A DNA stretch of 64,000 nt, taken from NCBI GenBank assembly GCA_021108075.1, contig JAIORP010000178.1, positions 31,811 through 95,810 of the forward strand, given 5' to 3'. Positions within the stretch are counted from its first letter, which is position 1. The number at the start of each line of letters is the position of its first letter. This DNA comes from Candidatus Omnitrophota bacterium (GTDB taxonomy: Bacteria; Omnitrophota; Gorgyraeia; Zapsychrales; Zapsychraceae). This document shows positions 13,463 to 30,241 of this stretch, one piece after another. The position numbers and the translations under genes are program-made. The notes under the pieces are model-generated. The model searched no databases. It was not told the origin of the DNA and saw only the letters and a program-made list of their open reading frames with translations.

Positions 13463-13477
13463 AATGAATGGTCTCCA

Positions 13478-14344: not shown

Positions 14345-14977
14345 ATGAAGGCCGTTGTTGTTGATTATCATATGGGAAATTTATTCAGTGTGAGACAGGC
14401 CTGTGAGCAAGTCGGTTTTGAGAGTGTGATTTCATCGAAGAAAGAAGATGTTGATCACGCGGATGCCATTATCCTGCCCGGCGTCGGGGCTTTCGGGGTT
14501 GCGATGGAACATTTGAAAAAGAATGATTTGGTCGATGTCTTAAAGAGAAATATTGAACAGAAAAAACCGTTCTTGGGTGTCTGCCTCGGATTTCAGCTTT
14601 TAATGGATAGAAGCACGGAATTTGGTGAATATGAAGGGTTAGGCGTTTTTCGCGGAAGTGTTAAAAAATTTCCCGCGCGGGTGAGAAAAATTCCGCATGT
14701 GGGTTGGAATACCCTGCGCGTTAATGAAGGAAACGCGTCATGCTCCCGGGTCTTTAAGGACATCGGTTATGACGAATATTATTATTTTGTGCATTCATAT
14801 TATGTCGACACGCGAGAAGATGTGCTGACGACGACCGATTATGAGGGGTTTTCTTTTTGTTCGGCTATTGCTAAAGATCATATTTGGGGACTGCAATTTC
14901 ATCCCGAGAAAAGCGCCCGGCAAGGATTAAAGCTTTACGAGAATTTTTTTCAATATGTGAAAGGTATAAATAGATGA
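14345..14977 (+). CDS. HisH-like glutamine amidotransferase subunit (WbuY-like)
   Basis: GVCLGFQLL catalytic Cys motif and HPEKS; 210 aa. Confidence 0.8.
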   Translation: MKAVVVDYHMGNLFSVRQACEQVGFESVISSKKEDVDHADAIILPGVGAFGVAMEHLKKNDLVDVLKRNIEQKKPFLGVCLGFQLLMDRSTEFGEYEGLGVFRGSVKKFPARVRKIPHVGWNTLRVNEGNASCSRVFKDIGYDEYYYFVHSYYVDTREDVLTTTDYEGFSFCSAIAKDHIWGLQFHPEKSARQGLKLYENFFQYVKGINR

Positions 14978-16185: not shown

Positions 16186-16189
16186 AATT

Positions 16190-17266
16190 ATGGATATAGA
16201 CAGCAATATAAAAAAATTATTTATCAATGGTACGATTTCTTTAAAAGAGGCCATGAAGAAAATCAGCAAAGAAGGACAGGGTGTTCTCATTGTGGTGGAC
16301 GGCCAATCAATGTTAATGGGAATGTTAACGGATGGAGACATTCGCCGGGCGATATTATCCGGTCATCCTTACAGCGACGCGATTGACGGTATTTATAATG
16401 ATCATCCGCACTTTGTATCAGAGCCTACTTCACATGAACAGATTCGAAACATTATGCTGCAGGACCGGATTGAGGCCGTTCCTGTCGTTGATGATAATAA
16501 GCGCATTATAGATGTTGTTTTCTGGGATGATATCATCAGTGAAACGGTTCAAAGGCCTAAACGGAAACTGAATGTTCCGGTCGTGATTATGGCTGGAGGG
16601 AAAGGGACCCGTCTGGACCCTTTCACGAGAATTTTGCCAAAATTGCTTATACCCATCGGAGAAAAAGCGATTATCGACATTATTATCGACAAATTTGCTT
16701 TTTATGGAATCACACAATTTTATATATCCATCAATAACAAAGCTAAAATTGTGAAAGCTTATTTTGAAGAGAGATATTCTGATTATCATTTGCATTATTT
16801 AGAAGAAACCAGGCCTTTAGGAACGGCCGGGAGTTTGAAGGCTTTACCACGGAAGTTCAAGGGTTCTTTTTTTGTGTCAAACTGTGACATTATTGTTGAT
16901 TGTGATTATTCGGATATTTACGGTTTTCATTGTGAGAAAAATAATGATATAACGATTGTCGGCTCTCACCGGCATTTTGTGATCCCCTACGGCGTCTGTG
17001 AGATCAAGAACGGTGGCACATTGAAATCTATCAATGAGAAGCCGGAATATGATTTTTTAGTGAATACAGGCATGGTTGTTCTTAAGCGGAGTGTTTTGAA
17101 ATATATCCCGAGAAATAAAGAATTTCATATGACTGATTTAATTTCCTCTGTGCAGCAAAAAGGCGGGAAGGTGGGCGTTTATCCGATTGATGAAAAATCC
17201 TGGATTGATGTCGGGCAGTGGGATGAATATAAGAAGGTCATGGAAAACTTCGAGAAAAAGTTATGA
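16190..17266 (+). CDS. CBS-pair + sugar-phosphate nucleotidyltransferase (PtmE-like guanylyl/nucleotidyl-transferase)
   Basis: N-terminal CBS region, then VVIMAGGKGTRL nucleotidyltransferase motif; 358 aa. Architecture matches C. jejuni PtmE. Confidence 0.75.
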   Translation: MDIDSNIKKLFINGTISLKEAMKKISKEGQGVLIVVDGQSMLMGMLTDGDIRRAILSGHPYSDAIDGIYNDHPHFVSEPTSHEQIRNIMLQDRIEAVPVVDDNKRIIDVVFWDDIISETVQRPKRKLNVPVVIMAGGKGTRLDPFTRILPKLLIPIGEKAIIDIIIDKFAFYGITQFYISINNKAKIVKAYFEERYSDYHLHYLEETRPLGTAGSLKALPRKFKGSFFVSNCDIIVDCDYSDIYGFHCEKNNDITIVGSHRHFVIPYGVCEIKNGGTLKSINEKPEYDFLVNTGMVVLKRSVLKYIPRNKEFHMTDLISSVQQKGGKVGVYPIDEKSWIDVGQWDEYKKVMENFEKKL

Positions 17267-18204
17267 GAGTCTGTCTATTTGGGTTAGGGTCGATTGGTCG
17301 ACGGCATGCCAAGCTGTTATCCCAGTTTGATGCTATTGATCTGGTTGCTTTTCGTACAGGAAAAGGACAACAAAAAAATGGTTCAGGTGTGCCTGAAATT
17401 TTTTCATGGGATGAGGTGAAAGAGTTCCACCCGGATATCGCTGTCATATCTAATCCAACTTTTTTACATATTGACACAGCCTTGCTTTGTGCTGAGATGG
17501 GGATGCACTTGTTTATTGAGAAGCCTATTGACGTTTCGGTAAGACGTTTAAAAGAATTAACACGAATTGTTTCGGATAAGGATTTATTAACGTATGTCGC
17601 TTATGTCTTGAGGTTCCATCCTGCGATCAAGTATATAAAGGATCAACTGCAATCTCATCAAGTATTAAATGTTTCCGTGCGGTCTTCATCCTATTTGCCT
17701 GATTGGCGCCCGGGTTTTAATTATAAGGAGATGTTTTCTGTGAGAAAAGATCAGGGTGGCGGAGTTATCCTGGATTTGTCCCATGAATTTGATTATATTC
17801 AATATTTGTTTGGATCGATTGAAACAATGGAGGGGAAGTTCGGTCAGGCTTCCAATATAACCATCGACGCGGAAGATTATTGTGACGCCATTATTCGGAC
17901 GGAAAACTGTCCAAGCATCAATTTGCATCTTGATTATTTCAGCCGGTATGCCGAGCGGTATTTGAAAATAGATGTGGCCGGAGGGGCCTTTATGGTGGAC
18001 CTGATAAAAAGCACGGTTGAATGGCATCATGACGGGCGTGTTGACAGGAAGGATTTCCCGTTTGAACGTGATGACATATACAGGGAACAATTGGAACTTT
18101 TTATGGATCATGTTAAACAGGGTCGGCCGATGAGTAACAATCTTGAAGAAGCTTCCGTGTTGTTCGAAAAAATAATCGCATTCAAGGAAAGAGGGTCCCT
18201 GTGA
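17263..18204 (+). CDS. Gfo/Idh/MocA-family oxidoreductase (PtmF-position)
   Basis: VCLFGLGSIGRRH and FIEKP motifs; 313 aa. Confidence 0.7.
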   Translation: MRVCLFGLGSIGRRHAKLLSQFDAIDLVAFRTGKGQQKNGSGVPEIFSWDEVKEFHPDIAVISNPTFLHIDTALLCAEMGMHLFIEKPIDVSVRRLKELTRIVSDKDLLTYVAYVLRFHPAIKYIKDQLQSHQVLNVSVRSSSYLPDWRPGFNYKEMFSVRKDQGGGVILDLSHEFDYIQYLFGSIETMEGKFGQASNITIDAEDYCDAIIRTENCPSINLHLDYFSRYAERYLKIDVAGGAFMVDLIKSTVEWHHDGRVDRKDFPFERDDIYREQLELFMDHVKQGRPMSNNLEEASVLFEKIIAFKERGSL

Positions 18205-18917
18205 ACGTATTAGCCACCATAGCGGCGCGGGGCGGATCAAAAGGAGTTCCCGGTAAAAACATTAAGGAATTGCTGGGAAGACCGCTGATCGCCTATACCA
18301 TTGAACAGGCCGTAGCCTGTGATTTTATCGACAGGGTTGTCTGTTCCACGGATTCTGAGGAAATTTTAGACATCGCTAAACAATATGGCGCTGAAGGGCC
18401 GTTCATCAGGCCCCTTGAACTGGCACAAGATTCTTCCGCGAAATTGCCTGTTATTCAACACGCGGCGCGTTATTATATCGACCGTATGGGTTTTGTTCCT
18501 GATGTTATTATTGACCTGGACCCGACATCGCCTTTGCGTGCCATTGATGATATCAAGAAATGTTTTGATGTTTTGCTCTCAGACGAGGATTGTGACACGG
18601 TTATCACCGGATACCTCGCCCGCAAAAATCCATATTTTAACATGGTTGAAGACACCGGCGACGGATATGTTCAGGTGTGTAAAGGTGATGGTTTGGTTGT
18701 CTCCCGCCAGTCAGCACCGACGGTATATTCGATGAACGCCTCCATTTACGCCTGGCGGACAGAGGACCTGTTTAAACTGGATAATGTGCTGAGGGGCCGG
18801 ACGCGTATCGTTGAAATGCCCTATGAGTCGTCTGTTGATATTGACAGTTTATTTGATTTTAAGACAGTTGAATTTTTAATGAAAGAAAAGGGGAATCATG
18901 GGATTGGATCGTTTTAG
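18201..18917 (+). CDS. Acylneuraminate cytidylyltransferase family (PtmB/LegF-like CMP-sugar synthetase)
   Basis: IAARGGSKGVPGKNI motif; 238 aa; GTG start. Confidence 0.75.
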   Translation: MNVLATIAARGGSKGVPGKNIKELLGRPLIAYTIEQAVACDFIDRVVCSTDSEEILDIAKQYGAEGPFIRPLELAQDSSAKLPVIQHAARYYIDRMGFVPDVIIDLDPTSPLRAIDDIKKCFDVLLSDEDCDTVITGYLARKNPYFNMVEDTGDGYVQVCKGDGLVVSRQSAPTVYSMNASIYAWRTEDLFKLDNVLRGRTRIVEMPYESSVDIDSLFDFKTVEFLMKEKGNHGIGSF

Positions 18918-19683
18918 TTTAAAAGATAAAATTGCTGTCGTAACAGGCGGGGCAGGTTTACTTGGATCAGCCATGTGTCAGCTTTTTGCTGAAGCGGGCG
19001 CGAAAGTTTATATCGCGGAATTTGATCAGGATAAAGCGCGAATATTAAAAGAAGACATCCTTAAACAAGGCAACCAGGCAGAGTTTGTCTTTTTGGATAT
19101 CACGCAAGAGGAATCGGTTGAACAATGTATCAACAGCATTGCCTCGCAGGACGAGCGGATTGATATCTGGGTGAACAATGCTTATCCGCGGACGCCTGAT
19201 TGGGGTGATAAATTTGAAAATGTTAAGATCGATTCTATCCGGAAAAATGTTGACGCGCATATGAATGGTTATTTTATGTGTTGCCAGAAAGTATTGTTGC
19301 GGATGAAAACCGCCGGGGGAGGGACTGTCGTTAATATCGGTTCGCATTATGGCGTGCTGGGCCCGAATTTCAGTGTTTATGACGGCACTGAGATGACCAT
19401 GCCGGTGGCCTATTCAATGATAAAAGGCGGTATTGTTAATTTAACGCGCTATTTAGCCACATACTTTGCGAAAGATAATATTCGCGTTAATACCGTTTGT
19501 CCGGGTGGTGTTTTTGACTCTCAGCCTTCCGCTTTTGTCCAACGTTACAATGACAAGGTCCCTTTGGGCCGTATGGCAAATCCGGATGAGATTGCCAACA
19601 GCGTCTTGTTTCTAGTGTCAGACGCGGCCTCTTACATCACGGGGCAAACACTAATGGTTGATGGGGGCTTATCAATCTGGTAA
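18898..19683 (+). CDS. SDR oxidoreductase (PtmA-like)
   Basis: VTGGAGLLG, NNAY, YSMIKGG (YxxxK); 261 aa; similar to the 3745..4578 paralog. Confidence 0.75.
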   Translation: MGLDRFSLKDKIAVVTGGAGLLGSAMCQLFAEAGAKVYIAEFDQDKARILKEDILKQGNQAEFVFLDITQEESVEQCINSIASQDERIDIWVNNAYPRTPDWGDKFENVKIDSIRKNVDAHMNGYFMCCQKVLLRMKTAGGGTVVNIGSHYGVLGPNFSVYDGTEMTMPVAYSMIKGGIVNLTRYLATYFAKDNIRVNTVCPGGVFDSQPSAFVQRYNDKVPLGRMANPDEIANSVLFLVSDAASYITGQTLMVDGGLSIW

Positions 19684-21484
19684 TCCAATGAACAAACAGA
19701 AGATTTTTTTAATATCTCCGATATCCTTCTTATCTAAAACATTTTATTCATTTCTTAAGAAGTTTAACTACGACGTTTACTGTAGAGGTCGATTTGATAA
19801 GGACGTTTTAAGTGATACGGCTAATGATCATTATGATCAAGCTAGCGACGCGTTTCGCGCGTTTACGGATGACCATATTCAGCAAGACAGAATTAAAGCT
19901 ATTGCCGAAAAATATGGCTTAGATCCAACCTGTTTAGGTAAATTTTCTCGAGATGTCATGATGAGTGTTTGGCACTTTGATTTTTGTTTTACGTTTACTG
20001 CTGTCAAGAAGTTTGCCTCTTCAAACGCGATTATCGGATTTGTCAGTTATCCTCCAACCTGGTGGAAGTCATTAGAAGATATCCTCGGATACAAAACAAA
20101 TATTTTTTTCTCTGCGATCTTAATGTTTGAAAGACGATGTCGTATCTTTGTCAAATCGACACTAAAAATGATTTTATTTAGCATAAAATTATTGTCTTGG
20201 CTTTTTTTAAGATCTAAAGAAAATTATGGATATTGGCAACAAAATTATATTTGGCTCTCAGGTGATAAGAAAAACGTTCTCACCCGGGATTCAAAGAAGA
20301 ATTCATTGCCCTGTTTCCTGTCACAATTAAGGGTTGAGGGGAAAATACAGCAAAAGTTCATAATCATTGCTCCCGCGTTAAAAAAAGATGAATGGTGGGA
20401 GGATGAGGATGTTGTTGCCAGAAGCAATGTTTGGGATTTCTTTCCTGATGTGTCTTTATCTGAAGTGGGGGGAATTCTTAAACAATTTTTTTATCTATAT
20501 ATTCATTTATTTTTTAATTTCTTTAGCTCTAAGCCGGATTTTGAAATATTAATTGCTCTTTTTGATTATATCTTTATTGGATTTGTACTTCAGAAGCTGG
20601 ATCCTAAAGCTGTTTTATATTCTCAATCGACTTTTGGCGCGGGCAATAGTTTTGTTTACGCGAGTGCAGAGAAAAAGATTAAATCATTTCTTATTTATTA
20701 TGGGGCTTCAAATTTCAGGCCCGCCGTTGAATCCAAAGTGACGTATCAATTATTCACTAGCGAGTGCCAAAACGTTATCGCGGATCACATTTTTGTTTGG
20801 AATGAGCATACGAGAAAGCATTTTGAATCGATTGGTCGAGAAAAAAATGTTCATATTGTTGGAACTCAAATATTTTCACCGTGTTATCCGTTAAATCATT
20901 TTAAACCTAATACCAGATTTACAATAGGTGTATTCTTCGGGGTGCCGTTTGCCAAAGAACACATTTACCGAATGGGCCTGGGCAACTATTTCCATGATGT
21001 TTCTTATTGCGCGGAGTTTTGGCGCAGCTTATTCTCTGTGGTATCGAAAGTCTATCAGGAACAATTCATGTTTTTGGTTAAATTAAAAATTCGGGGGAAT
21101 AATCAGAAGCACTATGATACCTGGTTTCGTTCGTTGAAAAAAGAATATCCTTTCTTTGATGACGTCGTTCAGATCTGTTCAGAGACTGAGAATTTATGGG
21201 ATCTTGTTCAACGCACGGATTGCTGCGTCTCAACAGCTTTAAGCTCTGCGGCATGTGTTCCGCTTGATTTTGGCATTCCTTCAATTCATTATGATCAGGC
21301 GGGCATCGTTAAACCGATTGATAATCTTGGCATTCCCTTACTTTGCGATGAAAATTTTTTGATTCAATGGTTTCGAGACCTTAGAAATGGGCGTATAAAA
21401 AAGTATAAGATTGATGGAAAAAAATTTGATCTAGGAGCCGTCTCATTAGCCCGAATGTTGAATTTAATCATGTCTGAAAGCTAA
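19658..21484 (+). CDS. Hypothetical protein, 608 aa; possible glycan-modifying transferase (Maf-like by size and context only)
   Basis: Long ORF in AT-rich DNA immediately after the ptm-like block; no motif I can name. Alternative start at 19688 (MNKQKIF). Confidence 0.4.
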   Translation: MMGAYQSGNPMNKQKIFLISPISFLSKTFYSFLKKFNYDVYCRGRFDKDVLSDTANDHYDQASDAFRAFTDDHIQQDRIKAIAEKYGLDPTCLGKFSRDVMMSVWHFDFCFTFTAVKKFASSNAIIGFVSYPPTWWKSLEDILGYKTNIFFSAILMFERRCRIFVKSTLKMILFSIKLLSWLFLRSKENYGYWQQNYIWLSGDKKNVLTRDSKKNSLPCFLSQLRVEGKIQQKFIIIAPALKKDEWWEDEDVVARSNVWDFFPDVSLSEVGGILKQFFYLYIHLFFNFFSSKPDFEILIALFDYIFIGFVLQKLDPKAVLYSQSTFGAGNSFVYASAEKKIKSFLIYYGASNFRPAVESKVTYQLFTSECQNVIADHIFVWNEHTRKHFESIGREKNVHIVGTQIFSPCYPLNHFKPNTRFTIGVFFGVPFAKEHIYRMGLGNYFHDVSYCAEFWRSLFSVVSKVYQEQFMFLVKLKIRGNNQKHYDTWFRSLKKEYPFFDDVVQICSETENLWDLVQRTDCCVSTALSSAACVPLDFGIPSIHYDQAGIVKPIDNLGIPLLCDENFLIQWFRDLRNGRIKKYKIDGKKFDLGAVSLARMLNLIMSES

Positions 21485-21661
21485 AAGCTGACTTTTGTAT
21501 TGGTATAAAAGGGTTCTTTATGCAATGCATTGACATTTGATCAGATTCTAATAGAATATATTAAATCTTATTAAATATAAATTTTTTATATAGTAATTCT
21601 TTTAATAATTATATTAATATACTACAATTTGTATAATTTTTAGCGAAAAAGGAGGCGTGCG

Positions 21662-22390
21662 ATGAGCGAAGATAAGATTTTTGCAGATGATAAAGAAAAA
21701 ATAAATGATTTTGAGTTTGGAGAAGAGACAGCCCAAGTATTTGATGACATGTTGGATCGCAGTGTTCCGCTTTATCGCGAATTACAACGCATGATCGGTG
21801 AAATCGCGAATGAATTTGCCCAATCGGATACGAATATTGTTGATTTGGGGTGTTCAACCGGTATCACGCTTTTAACATTAAATAAAATGGTAGAGAAGAA
21901 TGTGAAGTTGATAGGTGTCGATTATTCACAGGCTATGCTCGATAAATGTAAAAAGAATTTGATAAAGGGTCATGTTAAAAAAGAATATGAATTTTTATGC
22001 CGCGACCTGAATAATGGCTTGGTCATAAAGAATGCATCTGTCGTTGTTTTGAATTTAACCCTTCAATTTATTCGTCCGCTTCAAAGAGATCTGCTGATTC
22101 AACATATTTACAATGGTTTGGTTGATAACGGATGTTTAATTTTAGTTGAGAAAGTCTTGGGGAATGATTCGGTTTTTAATCGGACATTTATTCAATTTTA
22201 TTATGATATGAAACAACGGAATGGTTATTCGGAGTTGGAGATTGCCCAGAAGCGTGAAGCATTGGAAAATGTGCTAATACCGTATCGAATGAGTGAAAAT
22301 GATCAAATGTTGCATCGTAATGGGTTTAGATACATGGATATTTTTTATAAGTGGTACAATTTTTATGGTGTGATAGCAATGAAAATGTAA
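21662..22390 (+). CDS. CmoA-like carboxy-S-adenosyl-L-methionine synthase homolog (class I SAM MTase fold)
   Basis: Near-colinear similarity to E. coli CmoA blocks: FDDMLDRSVPLY, VDLGCSTGITLL, NASVVVLNLTLQFIRP, NGYSELEIAQKREALENVL; 242 aa; strong AAAGGAGG RBS upstream. Confidence 0.65.
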   Translation: MSEDKIFADDKEKINDFEFGEETAQVFDDMLDRSVPLYRELQRMIGEIANEFAQSDTNIVDLGCSTGITLLTLNKMVEKNVKLIGVDYSQAMLDKCKKNLIKGHVKKEYEFLCRDLNNGLVIKNASVVVLNLTLQFIRPLQRDLLIQHIYNGLVDNGCLILVEKVLGNDSVFNRTFIQFYYDMKQRNGYSELEIAQKREALENVLIPYRMSENDQMLHRNGFRYMDIFYKWYNFYGVIAMKM

Positions 22391-22399
22391 AGGAGATTT

Positions 22400-23560
22400 A
22401 TGTTTGTTAACTCTACAAGCCAGAAAGAAGTTGAACAGGACATTGATTCTTTTATAAAAGATCAACACACACAAGGTGATCGAAATCGTTTATCCGCTAA
22501 ATTAAAAGGCGTCAAAATATGTGATACGGATCGCGAAAAGCGACTATTAAAGGTTATTCAGCAGGATCTGCATATATTAGAACGCATTGATGTGTCTGGA
22601 ATTCCCGGGGAATTGGATATTAAGTGGAAAAAATTAACAACAAGCGAACCGAACCGTTTTTTGAATGAGGACCGTTCTCCTAAGGCGGATGTTTTACGTA
22701 ATTTTAGAAAATTATCGATATTCATACCAGATGTGCCAACCTGTGACTTATCCGGGACTAATCCTATTAATATTGTTAGCGGTGGACGTCGAGGTGCGAG
22801 AAAACTCTTGTGTGAAAATTTAGAAATGCTTAAAGATAGGAAATGTCTTGATCTTTTGAAAAAATATCCTGTCAGCCGTATTGGAAACCCGAACGTTTTT
22901 ATTAAAGAAGGGTATGAATACACACATCGATGGACAAAGCATATATACTCATTGAGTTTATTTAAAAAGTATTTGGAGTCAGAATTAACAAATGATTTTG
23001 TTTTATTGGATTTGGGGTCAAGCTATGGGATTTTTTCCTATTTGATTAAGAAAGAGTATCCGAAAACAACACATATTCTGGTAGATTTTCCTGAACAACT
23101 AACGTTGGCCCATTATTTTTTAGGGATGAGTTTCCCTGAAGCAAAAATCGCGACAGTATCCGATCTAAAAGACATAGCTGCTTTGACAAATAACACTATA
23201 TCAGAGTATGATTTCCTTTTAGTCCCATGGTTTTATTATGATAAGTTAAGGTCGATCAAGATTGATGTGTATGCTAATTTTGCTTCTTTGGGAGAAATGC
23301 GGAGGGAATGGTTTGATTTTTATCTGAGTCATCCTGTCTTTAAATCTGCGAAGTGTTTGTTTATGATGAATAGTTTTATGTCAGGACAGGTTTATGATAA
23401 TGATTTAACTTTTTTAGATTATCCTTTTCGTGATTTTGATCAGTTGTATTTAGGGATTTGGCCCTATTCCCACTATACTTATGATAAAAAGCAGTTTTTT
23501 TTCTATGAAAAAGTTTGTTTCGCCTCCCAATATTTTGAATATATCGGCAAGAGAAAATGA
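22400..23560 (+). CDS. Hypothetical protein with methyltransferase-like fold (LDLGSSYGI motif); candidate partner of the CmoA-like enzyme
   Basis: 386 aa; glycine-rich LLDLGSSYGIFSYL then acidic VDFPE; no further recognisable motifs. Confidence 0.4.
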   Translation: MFVNSTSQKEVEQDIDSFIKDQHTQGDRNRLSAKLKGVKICDTDREKRLLKVIQQDLHILERIDVSGIPGELDIKWKKLTTSEPNRFLNEDRSPKADVLRNFRKLSIFIPDVPTCDLSGTNPINIVSGGRRGARKLLCENLEMLKDRKCLDLLKKYPVSRIGNPNVFIKEGYEYTHRWTKHIYSLSLFKKYLESELTNDFVLLDLGSSYGIFSYLIKKEYPKTTHILVDFPEQLTLAHYFLGMSFPEAKIATVSDLKDIAALTNNTISEYDFLLVPWFYYDKLRSIKIDVYANFASLGEMRREWFDFYLSHPVFKSAKCLFMMNSFMSGQVYDNDLTFLDYPFRDFDQLYLGIWPYSHYTYDKKQFFFYEKVCFASQYFEYIGKRK

Positions 23561-24591
23561 ATATGAATAAATCAAAATGTATCATCATCGGTTTCGGCTA
23601 TATGGGGGAAATTCGCGGGCGGGTTATTGATCAGCACGGGCGGCTTGAGCTCATCGGTGTGTGCGAGCCCGACAACGTCAAACGCGAGAAGATCAAGGGT
23701 GTGGCGGCGGTTTCGACCTACCAGGAGGCTTTGGCCTTAAACCCGGATATTGTTTTTGTCTGCGCCCCCAACTGTTTCGCGCCTGAAATAACCATCCAAA
23801 GTTTAAGGCGAGGTGTCCACGTTTTTTGTGAAAAGCCCCCTGGCCGTAATGTGCAGGATGTCCTGGATATGCGGGCGGCAGAACATTCGTCTGTTAAGTT
23901 GATGTTCGGCTTTAATCACCGTTACCATCCCGGGATACTGAAAGCAAAAGCGGTTTTAGAGACCGGCCGCCTGGGCCGGATCATCTCTTTGCGTGGTGTT
24001 TATGGTAAATCAGGCGGTGCTCAATACCATACGTCCTGGCGGAATGATATAAAAATTTCCGGCGGCGGGATATTACTGGACCAGGGTATTCATATGTTAG
24101 ACCTGTTCCGTTTTTTTTGCGATGATTTTGATCAGGTTAAATGTTTTGCCTCAACGTCTTATTGGAAATTCAACGACTTAGAAGATAATGCTTTTGTTAT
24201 TCTGAAAAATAAGCAGGGGCAAACGGCTTCGCTGTATTCCTCCGCGACACTGTGGAAACACACGTTTCAGATCAACATCATTTGTGAAGACGGCTACATG
24301 ACAGTGGAAGGGTTGCTGTCTAAATCCGGCAGTTATGGCCGTGAACGGCTTAAGATAGCCAAACGTCAGTTTGAAGATGAAGCTGCCGCGGTTGGTAATC
24401 CTTCCGAAGAAATCACATATTTTGACCGGGACCAGTCGTGGAATTTAGAAGTTGATGAATTCGTGGATTGCGTTCAAAATAATAAACCTGTTTCGACCAG
24501 TTCCTCTCATGATGCCTTGCGGGTCATGGAAATTGTTGATCAGGCCTATTCCGATGCCGGAATGAGTTTTTCTCAGGAGATAAAGCGATGA
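23557..24591 (+). CDS. Gfo/Idh/MocA-family oxidoreductase
   Basis: IIGFGYMGEIRG Rossmann motif and CEKPP; 344 aa. Confidence 0.7.
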   Translation: MNMNKSKCIIIGFGYMGEIRGRVIDQHGRLELIGVCEPDNVKREKIKGVAAVSTYQEALALNPDIVFVCAPNCFAPEITIQSLRRGVHVFCEKPPGRNVQDVLDMRAAEHSSVKLMFGFNHRYHPGILKAKAVLETGRLGRIISLRGVYGKSGGAQYHTSWRNDIKISGGGILLDQGIHMLDLFRFFCDDFDQVKCFASTSYWKFNDLEDNAFVILKNKQGQTASLYSSATLWKHTFQINIICEDGYMTVEGLLSKSGSYGRERLKIAKRQFEDEAAAVGNPSEEITYFDRDQSWNLEVDEFVDCVQNNKPVSTSSSHDALRVMEIVDQAYSDAGMSFSQEIKR

Positions 24592-25604
24592 AGACAATTG
24601 TGAGCAATGATGACTTTAACGCGGTTGATTTGAAACCATCCGGACTTTTAGCGCGATATATTGACCTGGCTAAAACGGATGTGCGGACATACATTTTAGA
24701 AGGAAACCCATTAAAGCCCTGTCCTTGCCCGGCCTGTCAACGCGATGAGGCCCGGCCGGCCTTTGTTAAGTTGGGGCTTCATTACCAGGAGTGCCTGGCC
24801 TGTGGCACAATTTTTATAGCACCGCGGCCCGGCGATGAGAGCATCGAAAAATTTTACCGGAAATCAGGATCGCGTAAATTTTGGCAGGAACAATTATCTC
24901 AAAGTACAGACCTTAAAAGAAAACAAAAGATTATCAAACCCCGCTGTGAGTGGATGATGGATTCTACCCAGGAGCATTTACCTGAGGCGCGTTGCCTGGC
25001 GGATATTTATATGAACCATACGGGGTATGTTCACGAACTGGAAAGCCTGGCCTGTTTTGAACAGAAATTGTTGGTCAATCCATGGGTGTCGTTTGATAAC
25101 CGTCAAACGCCTGACGGAATAAAGATTGTCCAGGCGCGGGATTGGGAAAAACTTCTCGAGCGTCAAGTTGATGTGCTGGTCTTGTTTGAGGTCTTAGACC
25201 GCGTGGCTGATGTTGAGACATTTATGACGAACGTTCACCGGATATTAAAACCGGGAGGGTTATGCTTTATCACCGCGATCCTTTCCTCCGGGTTTGATAT
25301 TCAGACATTGTGGGATGACGCGAACAATCTCATTCCTCCCGACCGTCTGAACGTGTTTTCGGTGGATGGTCTTTGTTCTTTATTTGACCGGCAGGGATAT
25401 GAATGTTTGGAGTTCAGCACACCGGGGATATTGGATATTGAGCTTGTTAAAGCCGGCCTGAACAAGCAAAAGAAGGTTCATTCACGGTTTGTTAAACAGA
25501 TCATGGAAGCCCGGAATAACACGCGACGGGAATTTCAGCGGTTTTTGCAGGCGAATTTATTAAGTTCTTATGGACGCGTTTTGATACGCAAAAAGGAGCG
25601 GTAG
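24588..25604 (+). CDS. SAM-dependent methyltransferase with N-terminal Cys4 zinc-ribbon (sugar C/O-methyltransferase-like)
   Basis: CPCPACQ ... CLACG zinc-ribbon, then VDVLVLFEVLDRV ... ILKPGG methyltransferase region; 338 aa. Confidence 0.6.
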   Translation: MKTIVSNDDFNAVDLKPSGLLARYIDLAKTDVRTYILEGNPLKPCPCPACQRDEARPAFVKLGLHYQECLACGTIFIAPRPGDESIEKFYRKSGSRKFWQEQLSQSTDLKRKQKIIKPRCEWMMDSTQEHLPEARCLADIYMNHTGYVHELESLACFEQKLLVNPWVSFDNRQTPDGIKIVQARDWEKLLERQVDVLVLFEVLDRVADVETFMTNVHRILKPGGLCFITAILSSGFDIQTLWDDANNLIPPDRLNVFSVDGLCSLFDRQGYECLEFSTPGILDIELVKAGLNKQKKVHSRFVKQIMEARNNTRREFQRFLQANLLSSYGRVLIRKKER

Positions 25605-25607
25605 GAT

Positions 25608-26231
25608 ATGTCTTATGTGAGGCGTTATTTAGAAGAAACCAAAAAAATATCTGAGTTGATCAATCCCCAAGATGTTGAGAACATGATCAACATTCTGTTA
25701 AAGGTCCGTCAAGCTGCGGGGCGCCTGTTCTTTCTTGGTGTTGGCGGGAGCGCTGGTAATTGTTCTCATGCCGTCAACGATTTTCGTAAGATCGGTGGAT
25801 TTGAAGCGTATACTCCGGTTGATAATGTCTCGGAACTAACGGCCCGGACCAATGATGAAGGCTGGGAGACCGTTTTCGCCCAATGGTTAAAGCAGTCACG
25901 GTTAAATGAAAATGATTGTGTTTTTATTTTTTCCGTTGGAGGCGGCAGCAAGGAGAAAAATATCAGCGTGAATTTAGTTTACGCCCTGGATTATGCCAGA
26001 CAGCAATCCGCAAAAGTGATCGGTGTTGTTGGCCGGGATGGCGGGCATACGGGGCAAGTCGCCGATGCCTGTGTGATCATCCCGACGATGTCAGATGACA
26101 CGGTTACCCCGCACGCGGAAGCGTTTCAGGGCGTTGTTTGGCATATGATCGTTTCTGATCCGCGCGTCATGCGGATGACCAACAAATGGGAGTCTGTTGC
26201 CGATCAAAAGACCAGTAAAGAAAATAATTAA
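25608..26231 (+). CDS. SIS-domain sugar-phosphate isomerase (GmhA / sedoheptulose-7-P isomerase-like)
   Basis: LGVGGSAGNCSHAVNDFRK SIS motif; 207 aa. Confidence 0.7.
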   Translation: MSYVRRYLEETKKISELINPQDVENMINILLKVRQAAGRLFFLGVGGSAGNCSHAVNDFRKIGGFEAYTPVDNVSELTARTNDEGWETVFAQWLKQSRLNENDCVFIFSVGGGSKEKNISVNLVYALDYARQQSAKVIGVVGRDGGHTGQVADACVIIPTMSDDTVTPHAEAFQGVVWHMIVSDPRVMRMTNKWESVADQKTSKENN

Positions 26232-26242
26232 AGGAGTACGCG

Positions 26243-26929
26243 ATGGCCATTTTTATAGATTCAGGTAACATTGAAGAAATCAAGACGTATCATTCCATGG
26301 GCATCATCCGCGGAGTGACGACCAATCCGACGATTCTTCTTCAAGACGGCATCAAAGGCGGTATGGCTGAGATCAAGCGGTGTTCGGTTGATCTCGCCAA
26401 ATTGATCCATCCGTATCCTTTGTCCGTTGAAGTCACAACCAATGATCCGCGGAAGATGTTGGAAGAAGCCCTTGAGATGGCGTCCTGGGCGGATAATATC
26501 AACGTAAAATTGACGATCCACGGCCCTGACGGCGAGTTAGACAATTTGACGGTTATCCATGAATTAGAGACGAAACACAATGTCCGTGTAAATGTCACGG
26601 CCATGATGAGCGCGCAGCAATGTTTTGTGGCGGCTTTAGCCGGCGCGACTTACGTCTCGCTTTTTTGCGGGCGGGTGAACAATATGGGTTACAACAGTAT
26701 GGAGGAATTGAGCAAGCTCCGTAACTTGATTGACAGTTTTGATCTAAAGGCTCAGATTATCGCGGCCTCGACCCGTGAGATTTTGAACATTGTTGAGTGG
26801 TTGGACGCCGGCGCCCATATCGTCACGGTTCTGCCCAAATTCATGAACGGGATGATCGTGCACCCGTACACCAAAGAGACGGTCCAACAATTTTTGGATG
26901 ACGCAGCTAAAGGAGAAGGCGCTAAATGA
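26243..26929 (+). CDS. Fructose-6-phosphate aldolase / TalC-type transaldolase family
   Basis: MAIFIDSGNIEEIK ... GVTTNPTIL N-terminus and overall colinearity with E. coli FSA (about 220 aa class); 228 aa. Confidence 0.75.
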   Translation: MAIFIDSGNIEEIKTYHSMGIIRGVTTNPTILLQDGIKGGMAEIKRCSVDLAKLIHPYPLSVEVTTNDPRKMLEEALEMASWADNINVKLTIHGPDGELDNLTVIHELETKHNVRVNVTAMMSAQQCFVAALAGATYVSLFCGRVNNMGYNSMEELSKLRNLIDSFDLKAQIIAASTREILNIVEWLDAGAHIVTVLPKFMNGMIVHPYTKETVQQFLDDAAKGEGAK

Positions 26930-27720
26930 AAAGTATTATTAATCGACGGAAGAAATTAAAGAAAAAGTTTAAGAATAAAGAGAGGGTTTTCGGGGCATGG
27001 ACATCACTCGCCCATTCGGGTATCACAGAAATTTTTTGTCAATCCGGGGTCGACTTTGTCGGTATTGATATCGAGCACAGCACGATCAGTCAAGGCGAAG
27101 CGCGAAGGATTATATCTGCCGCCCAAGCCGGAGGTTCCTTATGTTTACCGCGTATCGCTTCGCATAATATGGAGATGGTCAAACGCCTGTTAGACTCCGG
27201 CGCGGACGGGATTATTGTTCCGATGGTCTCAACAGCGGAAGAGGTCCGGGACATTATCTCCTGGTTGAAATATCCACCGAAAGGTAACCGCAGTTACGGT
27301 ATAGCCCGCGGGCAGGATTATGGATTTGATTTTGAAAATTATACCAGTTCATGGAACGACACCTCGACGTTAATCGTCCAGATCGAGTCGGTTGAAGGCG
27401 TGGAGAACATTGAAGCGATCACGGCCTTTGAAGAGGTCGATGGCATTATGATCGGTCCGTATGACTTATCCGGGTCATTAGGCATCCCCGGTCAACTGAA
27501 TCATCCCAAAGTTCAGGACGCCTGTATCAAGGCCTTACAGATGGCGCATGTGGCCCAGAAATCGTGCGGGACCCAATTGATCGAACCCAACGCGGAGAAT
27601 ATGAAGGCTTCTTTTGATCATGGTTATGACTTTGTGATCTTAGCCTCTGATGTCTTTCTCTTATGGAAGTGGAGCGAGGCGATGAAAGTTTTCATTAAGC
27701 AATTGAGAGGCACGCAGTAA
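26926..27720 (+). CDS. HpcH/HpaI-family (class II, pyruvate-dependent) aldolase
   Basis: GVDFVGIDIEHS and VENIEAI / GPYDL motifs of the HpcH/HpaI-citrate lyase beta fold; 264 aa. Confidence 0.65.
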   Translation: MKSIINRRKKLKKKFKNKERVFGAWTSLAHSGITEIFCQSGVDFVGIDIEHSTISQGEARRIISAAQAGGSLCLPRIASHNMEMVKRLLDSGADGIIVPMVSTAEEVRDIISWLKYPPKGNRSYGIARGQDYGFDFENYTSSWNDTSTLIVQIESVEGVENIEAITAFEEVDGIMIGPYDLSGSLGIPGQLNHPKVQDACIKALQMAHVAQKSCGTQLIEPNAENMKASFDHGYDFVILASDVFLLWKWSEAMKVFIKQLRGTQ

Positions 27721-27722
27721 GC

Positions 27723-28373
27723 ATGGCAACTTTAAGGACGGTTGTTTTGGATTTCGACGGTGTGCTGGTTGAGTCTGTCGGGATAAAAGATCAGGCCTTT
27801 GAAGAAATTTTTTCTGAATTCCCTGAGCATTTTGACCGGATTATGCGGTATCATCTGGCGCGCAACGCGACAATCCGTTATGAAAAGTTTAAACATATTT
27901 GGACGGAAATCCTCGGACGGCCTTATTCCGTTGATGTTGAACAGGAGTTATGCGGTCGATATGAGCGGCGTATCGTTGATAAAATTATTCAATGTCCTGA
28001 GGTTACGGGCGCGTCGGACTTTTTGAGCTTTCTCAGCAAAAAAATGCCTTTGTATATCGTTTCGATGAATCCATTGGAAGAGTTGAGGTCGATATTGCGA
28101 AAGCGGGGTTTTCTCTCCTTTTTTAGAGACGTGTACGCTTTTCCCTGGAAAAAGAAAGACGCTTTAGCGGATATTCTCAAGAAAGAAGGCCTGACGGCAC
28201 AGCAGTGCGTCTTTATCGGTGATACCCCGGAAGACCACATGGCGGCAAAAGAGAACGGCCTGACTTTTATCGGACGGCAATCAAATAGGAAGTTATCCGA
28301 TGATATTCCCGTATTTAAAACCCTGACGGATATTCAAAATTTTTTAGTGGATCAATATAACATTTATGAATAA
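27723..28373 (+). CDS. HAD-superfamily hydrolase (phosphatase, subfamily IA-like)
   Basis: VVLDFDGVLVES motif I and GDTPEDHMAA motif; 216 aa. Confidence 0.7.
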   Translation: MATLRTVVLDFDGVLVESVGIKDQAFEEIFSEFPEHFDRIMRYHLARNATIRYEKFKHIWTEILGRPYSVDVEQELCGRYERRIVDKIIQCPEVTGASDFLSFLSKKMPLYIVSMNPLEELRSILRKRGFLSFFRDVYAFPWKKKDALADILKKEGLTAQQCVFIGDTPEDHMAAKENGLTFIGRQSNRKLSDDIPVFKTLTDIQNFLVDQYNIYE

Positions 28374-28409
28374 AGACATTCTATCAACTCTTTATGATCA
28401 TACCAAATC

Positions 28410-28506
28410 TATTAATAAATTGTTCTATATTAATTTTGATATTCTCGCTAAATCGTCGAGAAAAGCAGAATTGGTGTTGGTCATTATTTAATGGAATTGG
28501 TATAAT
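28410..28506 (+). repeat. Promoter/operator repeat element, copy B (near-consensus), upstream of the 28651 operon
   Basis: Contains the 5' end ATACCAAATCTATTAAT, dyad TTCTCG-N9-CGAGAA (28443..28462), TTGGTC (-35-like), an 18-bp spacer, and TGGTATAAT (28498..28506). Confidence 0.8.
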
Positions 28507-28650
28507 TATATCAGTCAAGACTTGATGATTTTGACCTGCCGGGTTATGGTTTTGGAGATTTGCCTTTGTAGTCGATCCCGATCGCATTTTCCGGGTTAAC
28601 AAAATTGGCGATCAAAGAATAAAACAGATCAACGCGGAAAGGATAATATT

Positions 28651-29433: not shown

Positions 29434-29459
29434 AATACGGACATAAAAAAAGGTCAACA

Positions 29460-30209: not shown

Positions 30210-30241
30210 TGCAAGCCATCTGAATTCAAAGAAAGGTTTAT

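What the first reader, a model, noticed from the sequence alone, without database searches (positions are those of the whole stretch)
21662..23560. CmoA-like carboxy-SAM synthase homolog embedded in a glycan biosynthesis locus with an uncharacterised MTase-fold partner
The 242-aa protein is colinear with E. coli CmoA through its characteristic blocks (FDDMLDRSVPLY, VDLGCSTGITLL, NASVVVLNLTLQFIRP, NGYSELEIAQKREALENVL). CmoA normally makes carboxy-S-adenosylmethionine (Cx-SAM) for tRNA U34 modification together with CmoB. Here it sits in AT-rich DNA between nonulosonic-acid genes, followed with a 9-bp gap by a 386-aa protein with a SAM-binding-like LDLGSSYGI motif. This suggests a Cx-SAM-dependent (for example carboxymethyl) modification of a sugar or glycan, which is not a described chemistry for polysaccharide loci. 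It is preceded by a strong AT-rich promoter region and a perfect AAAGGAGG RBS.
Basis: partly seen in the sequence, partly recalled or inferred. Interest (0 to 1): 0.75.

Follow-up and report, generated by a model that had tools for sequence, protein, structure and literature searches.

The report
Carboxy-SAM synthase paired with sugar methyltransferase
In a surface-sugar gene cluster of an uncultured bacterium, an enzyme that normally makes a rare cofactor (carboxy-SAM) for tRNA modification sits next to a sugar-methyltransferase-like enzyme, a pairing kept across many bacterial phyla, which predicts an undescribed carboxymethyl decoration of bacterial glycans.

Summary
ORF 21662-22390 (242 aa) is a CmoA-family protein. 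It scores 251.6 bits on TIGR00740 (cutoff 193.3) and keeps the Cx-SAM carboxylate-binding Arg199 and the SAM-contact residues. Nine bases downstream, with its own AGGAG, lies a 386-aa class I methyltransferase-fold protein. Its C-terminal half matches TIGR04371, 'putative sugar O-methyltransferase'. It is not CmoB.

The new result is comparative. In 28 species-level genomes from at least 8 phylum-level lineages that encode this partner, a CmoA-family gene lies next to it in 25. No locus holds CmoB. The linkage persists in relatives only 28-30% identical to the partner. Many loci also carry a third gene, a 'PFTS-motif' polysaccharide protein (TIGR04417), as the window does at 19658-21484. In the window these three genes form a low-GC cassette (0.35 against 0.45-0.51) between a legionaminic-acid cluster and a Kdo-like ulosonic-acid cluster.

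Best reading: CmoA makes Cx-SAM and the partner transfers carboxymethyl to an ulosonic-acid-type sugar. The chemistry is inferred, not shown. I found no such glycan chemistry in the literature.

Caveats: the window's partner has Ser at a position that is basic in about 98% of the family, the acceptor is unknown, and the rest of the genome could not be searched for cmoB.

The parts
19658..21484 (+). PFTS-motif polysaccharide biosynthesis protein (608-aa ORF; public gene callers start at 19688, giving 598 aa). First gene of the low-GC cassette. Function unknown.
   Evidence: Precomputed Pfam PF27878 PFTS_polysacc. My iterative HMM places it in one family with genes that flank the CmoA/partner pair in L007, L008, L009, L011, L012, L013, L015, L018, L026, L031, L041-L046, L049 and L050. 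11 of 15 family members hit TIGR04417, although the window protein itself does not. GC 0.363.
21485..21661 (+). AT-rich intergenic region with candidate promoter elements and the CmoA ribosome-binding site
   Evidence: GC 0.226. TTGACA-16 nt-TAGAAT at 21530-21557, 11/12 matches. TATAAT at 21632-21637 and AAAGGAGG at 21648-21655, 6 nt before the ATG. Promoter function is not shown.
21662..22390 (+). CmoA-family carboxy-S-adenosyl-L-methionine (Cx-SAM) synthase, canonical 'type 1' (NCBI MCD4781616.1)
   Evidence: TIGR00740 251.6 bits, cutoff 193.3. Full-length matches to 1im8 and 4gek. R199 and the SAM-contact residues are conserved. Accession.
22391..22399 (+). 9-bp spacer carrying AGGAG (22391-22395) for the partner gene; the arrangement suggests translational coupling
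   Evidence: Sequence read directly.
22400..23560 (+). 386-aa class I methyltransferase-fold partner (NCBI MCD4781617.1, 'putative sugar O-methyltransferase'). Proposed Cx-SAM-dependent sugar carboxymethyltransferase.
23557..31934 (+). Downstream Kdo-like ulosonic-acid gene set that recurs with the pair: GFO/IDH/MocA oxidoreductase (23557), MTase_23 (24588), SIS isomerase (25608), FSA/transaldolase (26243), HpcH/HpaI pyruvate aldolase (26926), HAD phosphatase (27723), two SDRs (28651, 29460), KdsB-like cytidylyltransferase (30242), D-2-hydroxyacid dehydrogenase (31008)
   Evidence: Family hits. Homologs of these genes lie within 10 kb of the pair in L008, L013, L018, L019, L022, L024, L025, L028 and L029. 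HpcH-SDR-SDR-CTP_transf_3 also follows the pair in L041, L043 and L045.
7172..19683 (+). Upstream legionaminic-acid-type nonulosonic acid cluster: LegB, LegC, NeuD/LegH, NeuB/LegI, NeuC/LegG, B12-radical SAM, WbuZ/HisH/WbuX amidotransferase set, PtmE-like, PtmF-like, CMP-NulO synthetase, PtmA-like
   Evidence: NCBIfam hits, several above cutoff: LegB 497.6/475, NeuB 460.3/399.65, NeuC 456.1/235.9, WbuX 366.1/203.2.

Best explanation
This is a dedicated Cx-SAM module for glycan decoration.

Step 1 (inferred from strong family membership): the CmoA homolog converts SAM plus prephenate into carboxy-SAM.

Step 2 (inferred from conserved gene linkage and fold): the adjacent 386-aa class I MTase-fold protein uses Cx-SAM instead of SAM. 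It transfers a carboxymethyl group (+58.005 Da) to a nucleophile of a sugar. A hydroxyl is the likeliest target, which would give an O-carboxymethyl (glycolic acid ether) substituent.

Step 3 (inferred from context only): the acceptor is an ulosonic-acid-type sugar made by the flanking clusters, either the Kdo-like product of the downstream genes or legionaminic acid. It could be modified as a CMP-sugar, as a lipid-linked intermediate, or on the polymer.

A third, uncharacterised component, the PFTS-motif protein encoded just upstream, probably acts in the same step or the neighbouring one. In the window the three genes form a compositionally foreign cassette and may have been acquired together.
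For: 1. CmoA identity. TIGR00740 equivalog scores 251.6 against a cutoff of 193.3. Alignment to the CmoA structures is full-length. R199, which salt-bridges the Cx-SAM carboxylate and is not conserved in ordinary MTases (PMC3663124), is kept. So are Y39, D62, G64, S66, D89, D117, N132, F137 and E164.

2. Linkage. Among 28 GTDB species genomes whose partner homologs are 35-54% identical, a CmoA-family gene is directly adjacent in 23 and one gene away in 2. The lineages are Nitrospirae, Peribacteria, Omnitrophota, Dehalococcoidia, Elusimicrobia, Planctomycetes, Alpha- and Betaproteobacteria and Bacteriovoracaceae. The arrangement also holds for relatives only 28-30% identical, from marine metagenomes and a complete genome, and in L049 and L050. 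Within each CmoA type, pairwise identities of CmoA and partner correlate (r = 0.63 and 0.93; Mantel 0 of 2000 permutations).

3. No CmoB in the window or in any locus. CmoA-CmoB are otherwise primarily observed in a few proteobacterial groups (PMC6063277).

4. The same CmoA clade (64-73% identity) sits next to other MTase-fold proteins elsewhere: PEMT-family membrane MTases in Brocadiia and Chlamydiae MAGs, and class I MTases next to NeuB. This fits a generic Cx-SAM supplier serving different transferases.

5. Precedent. TglE/TglF, MccS/MccB-CTD and phage CmoA/CmoX are adjacent synthase-transferase pairs. MccB-CTD shows no significant similarity to CmoB and CmoX is a C5-MTase homolog. Ordinary O- and N-MTases accept cxSAM in vitro (PMC7496830).

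6. Partner. The model is a confident class I MTase fold with an intact SAM-binding loop and acidic ribose binder. R103 and R177 are invariant across 116 family members.

7. Context. 18 of 28 loci carry NeuB, KdsA, HpcH aldolase or a CMP-ulosonate synthetase within 10 kb.
Against: - No biochemical or structural datum shows that the partner prefers Cx-SAM over SAM. I could not inspect the model's coordinates, so no carboxylate-binding residue is identified.
- The window's partner has Ser at position 325. That position is Arg in 93% of the family and Lys or His in nearly all the rest. If it binds the cofactor or substrate carboxylate, this copy may behave differently.
- About half of the linked CmoA-family neighbours ('type 2') lack R199, have R/K one residue later, and score below the TIGR00740 cutoff. 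Their product is uncertain, which weakens the argument that linkage implies Cx-SAM in those lineages.
- Three loci lack a nearby CmoA gene: L028 with full flanks, and L010 and L020 on short contigs.
- I found no natural O-carboxymethyl sugar in the literature I could search.
- The rest of this MAG could not be searched for cmoB, so a dual role cannot be excluded.
Confidence: 0.55

Rival explanations
1. Housekeeping CmoA. The gene serves tRNA cmo5U34 synthesis with a CmoB encoded elsewhere. Its position in the glycan locus is incidental and the partner is an ordinary SAM-dependent sugar O-methyltransferase.
For: The protein passes the CmoA equivalog model, and PGAP names it CmoA. The rest of the genome could not be searched.
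Against: A CmoA-family gene lies next to the partner's homolog in 25 of 28 species across at least 8 phylum-level lineages, and also in distant relatives. That is not expected for an unrelated housekeeping gene. No CmoB is found in any locus. In E. coli cmoA and cmoB overlap. CmoA-CmoB are primarily observed in a few proteobacterial groups. The gene sits in a low-GC cassette with its partner.
Confidence: 0.07
2. Two ordinary methyltransferases. The CmoA-like protein has been recruited as a plain SAM-dependent methyltransferase, or makes some other SAM derivative. It and the partner methylate two positions of the same sugar. No Cx-SAM is involved.
For: Glycan loci often hold several MTases, and this window has at least four. 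Type-2 neighbours lack R199 and fall below the CmoA cutoff. The partner's closest named family is 'putative sugar O-methyltransferase'.
Against: The window's protein keeps R199, E164 and every Cx-SAM contact, and scores like true CmoA. In E. coli CmoA a lid over the cofactor obstructs the region where related RNA MTases bind their substrate (PMC3663124), and CmoA does not O-methylate prephenate. For 20+ independent lineages to pair specifically a CmoA-family protein with this partner, rather than any MTase, calls for a specific reason.
Confidence: 0.13
3. Cx-SAM is made, but the 386-aa partner is not the carboxymethyltransferase. Another enzyme transfers the carboxymethyl group: the PFTS-motif protein, the MTase_23 at 24588, or an unlinked one. 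The partner then does a follow-up step, for example methyl-esterifying the new carboxylate as CmoM does for mcmo5U.
For: The PFTS-motif protein is a frequent third member of the cassette. MTase_23 homologs co-occur in five loci. The window partner lacks the family's basic residue at position 325.
Against: The partner is by far the most constant neighbour of CmoA: 25 of 28 loci, against 10 of 28 for PFTS and 5 of 28 for MTase_23. The PFTS protein has no recognisable SAM-binding motif or MTase hit.
Confidence: 0.12
4. Cx-SAM-dependent carboxymethylation occurs, but the acceptor is not a sugar. It could be a lipid carrier, a lipid A phosphate, a peptide or a small metabolite encoded in or near the locus.
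For: The same CmoA clade pairs with PEMT/LmtA-like membrane MTases elsewhere. Rhizobial loci such as L034 show carrier-protein/thioesterase genes and a GT25 rather than ulosonic-acid genes. 'Sugar' in the family name is only putative.
Against: Most loci (18 of 28, plus the marine ones) are ulosonic-acid or glycan clusters with CMP-sugar synthetases, NeuB or KdsA, and flippases. The partner's catalytic half matches a family annotated for sugar O-methylation.
Confidence: 0.08

Closest known systems
CmoA/CmoB pathway for tRNA uridine-5-oxyacetic acid (cmo5U34) in E. coli and other Proteobacteria
   Same: The first enzyme is a true CmoA-family member: 37% identity to E. coli CmoA, equivalog score above cutoff, R199 and the SAM contacts kept. 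The logic of synthase followed by a dedicated transferase gene is the same.
   Different: There is no CmoB. The partner shares only SAM-binding motif I/II with CmoB (hhalign probability 20%). The genes lie in a glycan locus of an Omnitrophota MAG, not in a tRNA-modification operon. The expected acceptor is a sugar, not 5-hydroxyuridine.
Non-tRNA Cx-SAM cascades: TglE/TglF (3-thiaglutamate), MccS/MccB-CTD (microcin C-like peptidyl-cytidylate), phage CmoA/CmoX(/CmoY) (5-carboxymethylcytosine in DNA)
   Same: A CmoA homolog is encoded beside a carboxymethyltransferase. In the MccB-CTD case the transferase fold shows no significant similarity to CmoB, and CmoX is a C5-MTase homolog. This is the closest functional analogy.
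   Different: The acceptors there are a peptide thiol, a nucleotide and DNA cytosine C5. Here the transferase belongs to a different family (TIGR04371-like with a unique N-terminal domain), the context is polysaccharide biosynthesis, and a PFTS-motif protein is a frequent third partner.
TIGR04371 'methyltran_NanM' putative sugar O-methyltransferases
   Same: The C-terminal catalytic half (aa 152-324) matches above the family cutoff. It is a class I MTase fold with an intact SAM loop.
   Different: The first ~103 profile positions do not match. The N-terminal ~150 residues, which include invariant R103, and a C-terminal beta subdomain are specific to this clade. The clade is systematically linked to CmoA-family genes. 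I did not check whether canonical TIGR04371 members are also linked.
PEP-derived 1-carboxyethyl (lactyl) ethers of sugars, as in muramic acid (MurA/MurB type chemistry) - from general knowledge, not tested here
   Same: This is the known route to acidic ether substituents on bacterial sugars. The product class (O-alkyl carboxylic acid on a sugar) would be similar.
   Different: That chemistry uses enolpyruvyl transfer plus reduction and gives a three-carbon 1-carboxyethyl group. The system here would give a two-carbon carboxymethyl group from a SAM derivative.

Membership tests
CmoA (carboxy-SAM synthase, TIGR00740) | Full-length similarity above the curated equivalog cutoff | tested here: met
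   251.6 bits against cutoff 193.3, aa 4-241 on profile positions 2-239 of 239. 1im8 E 7e-55 and 4gek E 1.2e-50. It scores below the narrower enterobacterial model NF011995 (181 against 285).
CmoA (carboxy-SAM synthase, TIGR00740) | Arg199 (E. coli numbering), which salt-bridges the carboxylate of Cx-SAM and is not conserved in ordinary MTases | tested here: met
   R198 of the window protein aligns with R199, in K-R-E-A-L-E-N-V. The residue's role is taken from PMC3663124.
CmoA (carboxy-SAM synthase, TIGR00740) | SAM-contact residues Y39, D62, G64, S66, D89, D117, N132, F137 and the conserved E164 | tested here: met
   All are identical. Only N90 is changed, to Tyr.
CmoA (carboxy-SAM synthase, TIGR00740) | Prephenate-dependent conversion of SAM to Cx-SAM | not testable with these tools
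   Needs an enzyme assay.
cmoA-cmoB tRNA cmo5U operon | cmoB (PF08003) adjacent to or overlapping cmoA, as in E. coli | tested here: not met
   E. coli cmoA and cmoB overlap. tblastn with E. coli CmoB finds nothing at E <= 1e-3 in the 64-kb window or in L001-L035.
cmoA-cmoB tRNA cmo5U operon | cmoB present elsewhere in the genome, and cmo5U present in tRNA | not testable with these tools
CmoB carboxymethyltransferase | Homology to CmoB, including the N-terminal domain and the Cx-SAM carboxylate ligands K91, Y200 and R315 | tested here: not met
TIGR04371 putative sugar O-methyltransferase (NanM-like) | Score above the family cutoff over the whole model | tested here: inconclusive
   102.6 bits against cutoff 44, but only profile positions 104-273 of 273 match (aa 152-324). 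The N-terminal third of the model is not matched.
TIGR04371 putative sugar O-methyltransferase (NanM-like) | Class I SAM-MTase fold with a glycine-rich SAM loop and an acidic ribose binder | tested here: met
Adjacent Cx-SAM synthase + dedicated carboxymethyltransferase cascade (TglE/F, MccS/MccB, phage CmoA/CmoX type) | Conserved genomic coupling of a CmoA homolog with one transferase family | tested here: met
   25 of 28 genomes, plus L041-L046, L048, L049 and L050. Mantel 0 of 2000 permutations.
Adjacent Cx-SAM synthase + dedicated carboxymethyltransferase cascade (TglE/F, MccS/MccB, phage CmoA/CmoX type) | The transferase prefers Cx-SAM over SAM and transfers carboxymethyl | not testable with these tools
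   Needs binding and activity assays or a ligand-bound structure.
Legionaminic-acid biosynthesis locus | LegB, LegC, NeuD-type acetyltransferase, NeuB-type synthase, hydrolysing NeuC epimerase and a CMP-NulO synthetase | tested here: met
   TIGR04180 497.6/475. TIGR04181 373/420 (below cutoff). TIGR03570 195/160.8. TIGR03569 460/399.65. TIGR03568 456/235.9. CTP_transf_3 at 18201.

The most novel reading that the evidence does not exclude
Carboxy-SAM is a general alkyl donor for bacterial envelope chemistry, not only a tRNA, peptide or DNA cofactor. A previously unrecognised family of sugar carboxymethyltransferases (the CmoA-linked TIGR04371-like clade, about 100 clusters at 50% identity) installs O-carboxymethyl groups on Kdo- or nonulosonic-acid-type sugars, often together with a PFTS-motif protein. 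This occurs in at least eight phylum-level lineages, including Omnitrophota, Planctomycetes, Nitrospirae, Elusimicrobia, CPR bacteria and marine and freshwater Proteobacteria. In the non-proteobacterial lineages sampled here, CmoA homologs would then exist mainly to feed such envelope-modifying transferases, including PEMT/LmtA-like membrane enzymes.
Probability: 0.45. Interest if true: 0.82.

Novelty: new variant of a known kind. Interest (0 to 1): 0.72.

Why it matters
Enzymatic carboxymethylation through Cx-SAM has been called 'extremely rare in nature' (PMC7496830). The acceptors I found described in the literature are a tRNA base, a peptide thiol, a peptidyl-nucleotide and phage DNA.

- **New chemistry.** A sugar-directed version would add a new substituent (+58 Da, negatively charged ether) to the known repertoire of bacterial glycan modifications. 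It would also define a new carboxymethyltransferase family with its own way of recognising Cx-SAM.
- **Annotation.** It would explain what CmoA homologs are doing in the many phyla sampled here, most of them outside the proteobacterial groups where CmoA-CmoB are primarily observed. NCBI currently names the two genes independently as 'CmoA' and 'putative sugar O-methyltransferase', which hides the link and implies a tRNA role and a methyl product.
- **Testability.** The pair is small and soluble-looking. E. coli already makes Cx-SAM. At least three isolate genomes carry a version of the module.
- **Application.** A natural O-carboxymethyltransferase would be a useful biocatalyst, because current ones are engineered.

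Tried and rejected
- **CmoB search.** tblastn with genuine E. coli CmoB (fetched from NC_000913.3) found nothing in the window or in any locus.
- **Mapping CmoB's Cx-SAM ligands onto the partner.** hhalign aligns only motif I/II at 20% probability.
- **Outgroup test.** I expected distant family members to lack CmoA, which would have allowed a specificity-residue comparison. Instead the 28-30% identical relatives are also CmoA-linked, so no unlinked comparison set was obtained.
- **PFTS-motif protein.**
  - The word-based homolog search found only the protein itself.
  - BLASTP does not connect it to the marine PFTS proteins or to the two other ~606-aa window ORFs, which have other functions or none known. 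The ORF at 5138 is an ABC exporter.
  - The single-sequence AF2 model was useless, pLDDT 36.9.
  - The profile search against PDB gave only noise.
  - An iterative HMM did unite the family.
  - My recollection that HP and Thr-Ser motifs mark CMP-sugar transferases was not tested and is not used.
- **L037 409-aa MTase with a weak PF08003 flag.** It resembles CmoB only in the Rossmann core. Dropped.
- **Asn-synthase follow-up.** By analogy with phage CmoY I looked for one. Asn synthases are present near CmoA in L029, L037 and L040, but none is in the window.
- **Promoter claim.** The scan count is no higher than in shuffles.
- **Kim et al. 2013 (Nature).** The paper is not held, so prephenate-site residues were not checked.
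- **Literature.** Searches for natural O-carboxymethyl glycans or a glycan carboxymethyltransferase returned only unrelated material.
Full report
**1. Observation**

Every quoted peptide block is present.

The first protein is a CmoA-family member by any measure I could apply:
- NCBIfam TIGR00740 (CmoA equivalog) gives 251.6 bits against a cutoff of 193.3, over the whole length.
- It aligns end to end with the crystal structures of H. influenzae YecO (1im8, E 7e-55) and E. coli CmoA (4gek, E 1.2e-50).
- It is 37% identical to E. coli CmoA.

AAAGGAGG lies 6 nt before its ATG. The partner has its own AGGAG directly after the CmoA stop codon. The upstream 177-bp spacer has 22.6% GC. One 11/12 sigma-70-like site and a perfect TATAAT are there, but promoter-like sites in the region are no more frequent than in shuffles. 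The 'strong promoter' is therefore plausible but unproven.

**2. Catalytic residues**

Byrne et al. (PMC3663124) identified Arg199 as the residue that salt-bridges the carboxylate of the carboxymethyl-SAM cofactor. It is conserved in CmoA proteins but not in ordinary methyltransferases.

In the window protein the following E. coli positions are all identical: R199 (R198 here), Y39, D62, G64, S66, D89, D117, N132, F137 and E164. Only N90 is changed, to Tyr.

**3. The partner**

The 386-aa protein has no Pfam hit. Its residues 152-324 match NCBIfam TIGR04371, 'putative sugar O-methyltransferase', at 102.6 bits against a cutoff of 44. Only the last 170 of 273 profile positions are matched.

Across 116 family members these positions are invariant or nearly so: the SAM loop D204-x-G206-S207-x-Y209-G210, the ribose-binding D229, and R103, R177-W178, N293-F294, S296, E299-M300 and Y308.

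It is not CmoB. There is no PF08003 hit, and hhalign against E. coli CmoB aligns only 39 columns of motif I/II at 20% probability. This is not an argument against Cx-SAM use: MccB-CTD shows no significant similarity to CmoB yet is strictly Cx-SAM-specific, and phage CmoX is a C5-MTase homolog.

**4. Organism and locus**

The exact proteins are in NCBI as MCD4781616.1 ('CmoA') and MCD4781617.1 ('putative sugar O-methyltransferase'). They come from a Candidatus Omnitrophota MAG, on a 146-kb contig. The same genes also appear on metagenome contigs from several samples.

The window is one long, single-strand surface-glycan region:
- **Upstream of the pair:** a legionaminic-acid-type cluster. It comprises LegB, LegC, NeuD, NeuB, NeuC, a B12-radical SAM enzyme, the WbuZ/HisH/WbuX amidotransferase set, PtmE-like and PtmF-like genes, a CMP-NulO synthetase and a PtmA-like gene.
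- **Downstream of the pair:** a GFO oxidoreductase, an MTase_23, an SIS isomerase, an FSA/transaldolase, an HpcH/HpaI pyruvate aldolase, a HAD phosphatase, two SDRs, a KdsB-like cytidylyltransferase and a D-2-hydroxyacid dehydrogenase. I read this as a Kdo-like 3-deoxy-ulosonic acid pathway (inference).

The block 19658-23560 (608-aa ORF, CmoA, partner) has GC 0.35 and GC3 0.32-0.35. Both flanks have GC 0.45-0.51 and GC3 0.46-0.60. It looks like a cassette of foreign composition.

**5. Decisive comparative result**

A profile of the partner family recovered 29 loci from the one-genome-per-species collection. Of these, 28 are clear homologs at 35-54% identity. By record title they are Nitrospirae, Peribacteria, Omnitrophota, Dehalococcoidia, Elusimicrobia, Planctomycetes, Alpha- and Betaproteobacteria and Bacteriovoracaceae.

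tblastn with the window CmoA and with E. coli CmoA finds a CmoA-family gene directly adjacent in 23 loci. In L007 and L009 it is one gene away, giving 25 of 28. The exceptions are L028 (full flanks) and the short contigs L010 and L020. CmoB is found nowhere.

I expected more distant family members to lack CmoA. They do not:
- Relatives about 30% identical, from TARA and other metagenomes, show PFTS protein, then a 241-aa CmoA-like gene, then the partner, then KdsA-like, HpcH, SDR, SDR and CMP-transferase genes.
- A 28%-identical relative in a complete 2.47-Mb genome (CP047955.1) has a CmoA-like gene one gene away.
- Two further long contigs show NeuB, CmoA, PFTS protein, partner and Wzx in that order.

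For a gene family normally present at most once per genome, this linkage cannot be chance.

**6. Two kinds of CmoA neighbour**

- **Type 1** comprises the window, ten of the genome loci, and L037-L040. It keeps K198-R199-E-A-L-E, and the members I scanned pass the TIGR00740 cutoff (246-252 bits).
- **Type 2** comprises thirteen genome loci, the marine loci and L048. It is only about 30% identical, replaces R199 and mostly has a basic residue one position later, has Tyr (Phe in two) for N132, and hits only TIGR00740 but below the cutoff at 73-167 bits.

The partner family barely splits along this line. Mean identity is 0.46 and 0.43 within the types against 0.42 between them. The CmoA neighbours split deeply, at 0.54 and 0.58 within against 0.30 between.

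Within each type the two genes' pairwise identities correlate (r = 0.63 and 0.93). A Mantel test over all 23 loci gave 0 of 2000 permutations reaching the observed correlation.

I read this as one transferase family served by two interchangeable synthase lineages, inherited as a unit. Whether type 2 also makes Cx-SAM is open. The window carries the canonical type.

**7. A third component**

The 608-aa ORF upstream (PF27878; NCBI 'hypothetical protein K8S27_13860') is too divergent for BLAST. An iterative HMM unites it with genes flanking the pair in L007, L008, L009, L011, L012, L013, L015, L018, L026, L031, L041-L046, L049 and L050.

11 of 15 aligned members hit TIGR04417, 'polysaccharide biosynthesis PFTS motif protein'. 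No solved relative exists by sequence, and a single-sequence model failed. Its role is unknown. It is a frequent but not universal member of the module.

**8. The CmoA clade elsewhere**

Close homologs of the window CmoA (63-82% identity) come from Omnitrophica, Nitrospirae, Schekmanbacteria, Brocadiia/Scalinduaceae and Chlamydiae. At least 17 of the top 120 share a longest-contig length with a partner homolog.

I sampled four that did not:
- Two are overlapped by a PEMT-family membrane methyltransferase with weak similarity to the Leptospira lipid A 1-phosphate methyltransferase LmtA.
- Two sit among other class I MTases in glycan loci, one immediately before NeuB.

None is next to CmoB. This supports the view that, outside Proteobacteria, CmoA supplies a cofactor to various transferases.

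**9. Literature**

The Cx-SAM acceptors I found described are tRNA ho5U (CmoB), a peptide thiol (TglF), a peptidyl-cytidylate (MccB) and phage DNA cytosine C5 (CmoX). Herbert et al. call such pathways 'extremely rare in nature' and show that ordinary O- and N-methyltransferases accept cxSAM. CmoA-CmoB are reported primarily from a few proteobacterial classes. I found no report of a Cx-SAM-dependent glycan modification or of a natural O-carboxymethyl sugar. The library is not exhaustive.

**10. Mechanism proposed**

- **Shown here:** the CmoA family membership with its hallmark residues, the MTase fold of the partner, and the conserved linkage.
- **Inferred:** CmoA makes Cx-SAM. The partner binds it and transfers carboxymethyl to a sugar hydroxyl. 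The acceptor is a Kdo-like or nonulosonic acid, because 18 of 28 loci and all the marine loci carry NeuB, KdsA, HpcH or CMP-ulosonate synthetase genes within 10 kb. By analogy with CmoB's N-terminal Lys91, the clade-specific N-terminal domain with invariant R103, or R177, may hold the carboxylate. This is untested.

**11. Caveats**

- The window's partner has Ser325 where 93% of the family has Arg and nearly all the rest Lys or His. It also has a unique, low-confidence 45-residue N-terminal extension.
- The acceptor is unknown.
- Rhizobial loci have a different context, with carrier-protein/thioesterase paralogs and a GT25.
- The rest of the MAG could not be searched for cmoB, so a dual role is not excluded.

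**12. Verdict**

In kind, this is a new variant of the known 'Cx-SAM synthase plus dedicated carboxymethyltransferase' cascade, with a new transferase family, a new predicted substrate class and a frequent third component. Interest 0.72.

Noticed in passing
window 32297-38171: A low-GC (0.31-0.39) defence island sits inside the glycan locus. It holds a Dcm-type DNA C5-methyltransferase (32297), a 376-aa protein with no family hit (33667; possibly the cognate endonuclease), a Vsr mismatch endonuclease (34799) and an 875-aa protein that matches the DS8 anti-phage model at 617 bits, below its 790 cutoff (35544).
   Followed up: no
L038 6001-7505 (Brocadiia MAG GCA_030586555.1); L039 6001-7442 (Chlamydiae MAG GCA_016178005.1): A canonical type-1 CmoA (64% identical to the window's) overlaps by 4 bp a PEMT-family (PF04191) membrane methyltransferase. 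That protein is weakly similar to the Leptospira lipid A 1-phosphate O-methyltransferase LmtA (92 bits, cutoff 325). This may be a second undescribed Cx-SAM acceptor class, lipid or lipid A.
   Followed up: partly
L011, L012, L021, L022, L024, L026, L027, L029-L034, L041, L043, L045, L048 (CmoA-like genes next to the partner): This is a divergent 'type 2' CmoA-like lineage, about 30% identical to canonical CmoA. R199 is replaced and most members have R/K one residue later. N132 becomes Tyr (Phe in two) and most members share a VRAxDARFQD motif. It hits only TIGR00740, below the cutoff. It substitutes for canonical CmoA beside the same partner family, and whether it makes Cx-SAM is unknown.
   Followed up: partly
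window 19658-21484; also L049 9733-11586 and L050 9723-11594: PFTS-motif proteins (TIGR04417/PF27878, ~540-650 aa; conserved S-x-P-F-T-S-P...H-Y-G-K and H-P-Q motifs) are a recurrent third gene of the CmoA/partner module. They have no solved relative and no known function.
   Followed up: partly
window 25608-31934: This ulosonic-acid-like gene set has a KdsB-like cytidylyltransferase, an SIS isomerase and a HAD phosphatase, but no KdsA- or NeuB-type synthase. It has FSA/transaldolase and HpcH/HpaI pyruvate aldolases instead. The marine relatives have both KdsA-like and HpcH genes. It may be an aldolase-based route to a 3-deoxy-ulosonic acid.
   Followed up: no
window 12074-13462: A B12-binding radical SAM enzyme lies between NeuC and the WbuZ/HisH/WbuX acetamidino genes of the legionaminic-acid cluster, which suggests an unusual (C-methyl?) modification of the nonulosonic acid. 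Similar B12-rSAM genes lie near the pair in L049 and L050.
   Followed up: no
L029 4924-6846; L037 1414-3291; L040 11115-12726: Asparagine-synthase homologs lie in the same loci as the CmoA genes. In phage the Asn-synthetase homolog CmoY amidates the carboxymethyl group (PMC12783734), so some lineages may further amidate a carboxymethylated glycan. The window has none.
   Followed up: partly
L034 3200-9741 (Flavimaribacter sediminis WL0058): Four tandem paralogs of a ~410-aa protein with a phosphopantetheine-binding domain plus a thioesterase, interrupted by a GT25 glycosyltransferase, lie immediately upstream of the partner/type-2 CmoA pair. This context is quite different from the ulosonic-acid loci.
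   Followed up: no
window 22400-22534 and codon 325 of the partner (about 23372-23374): The window's partner is atypical for its family. It has a 45-residue N-terminal extension of low model confidence that is absent from all homologs, and Ser at position 325 where about 98% of 116 relatives have Arg, Lys or His (NSFMSGQ against consensus NRFQSAP).
   Followed up: yes
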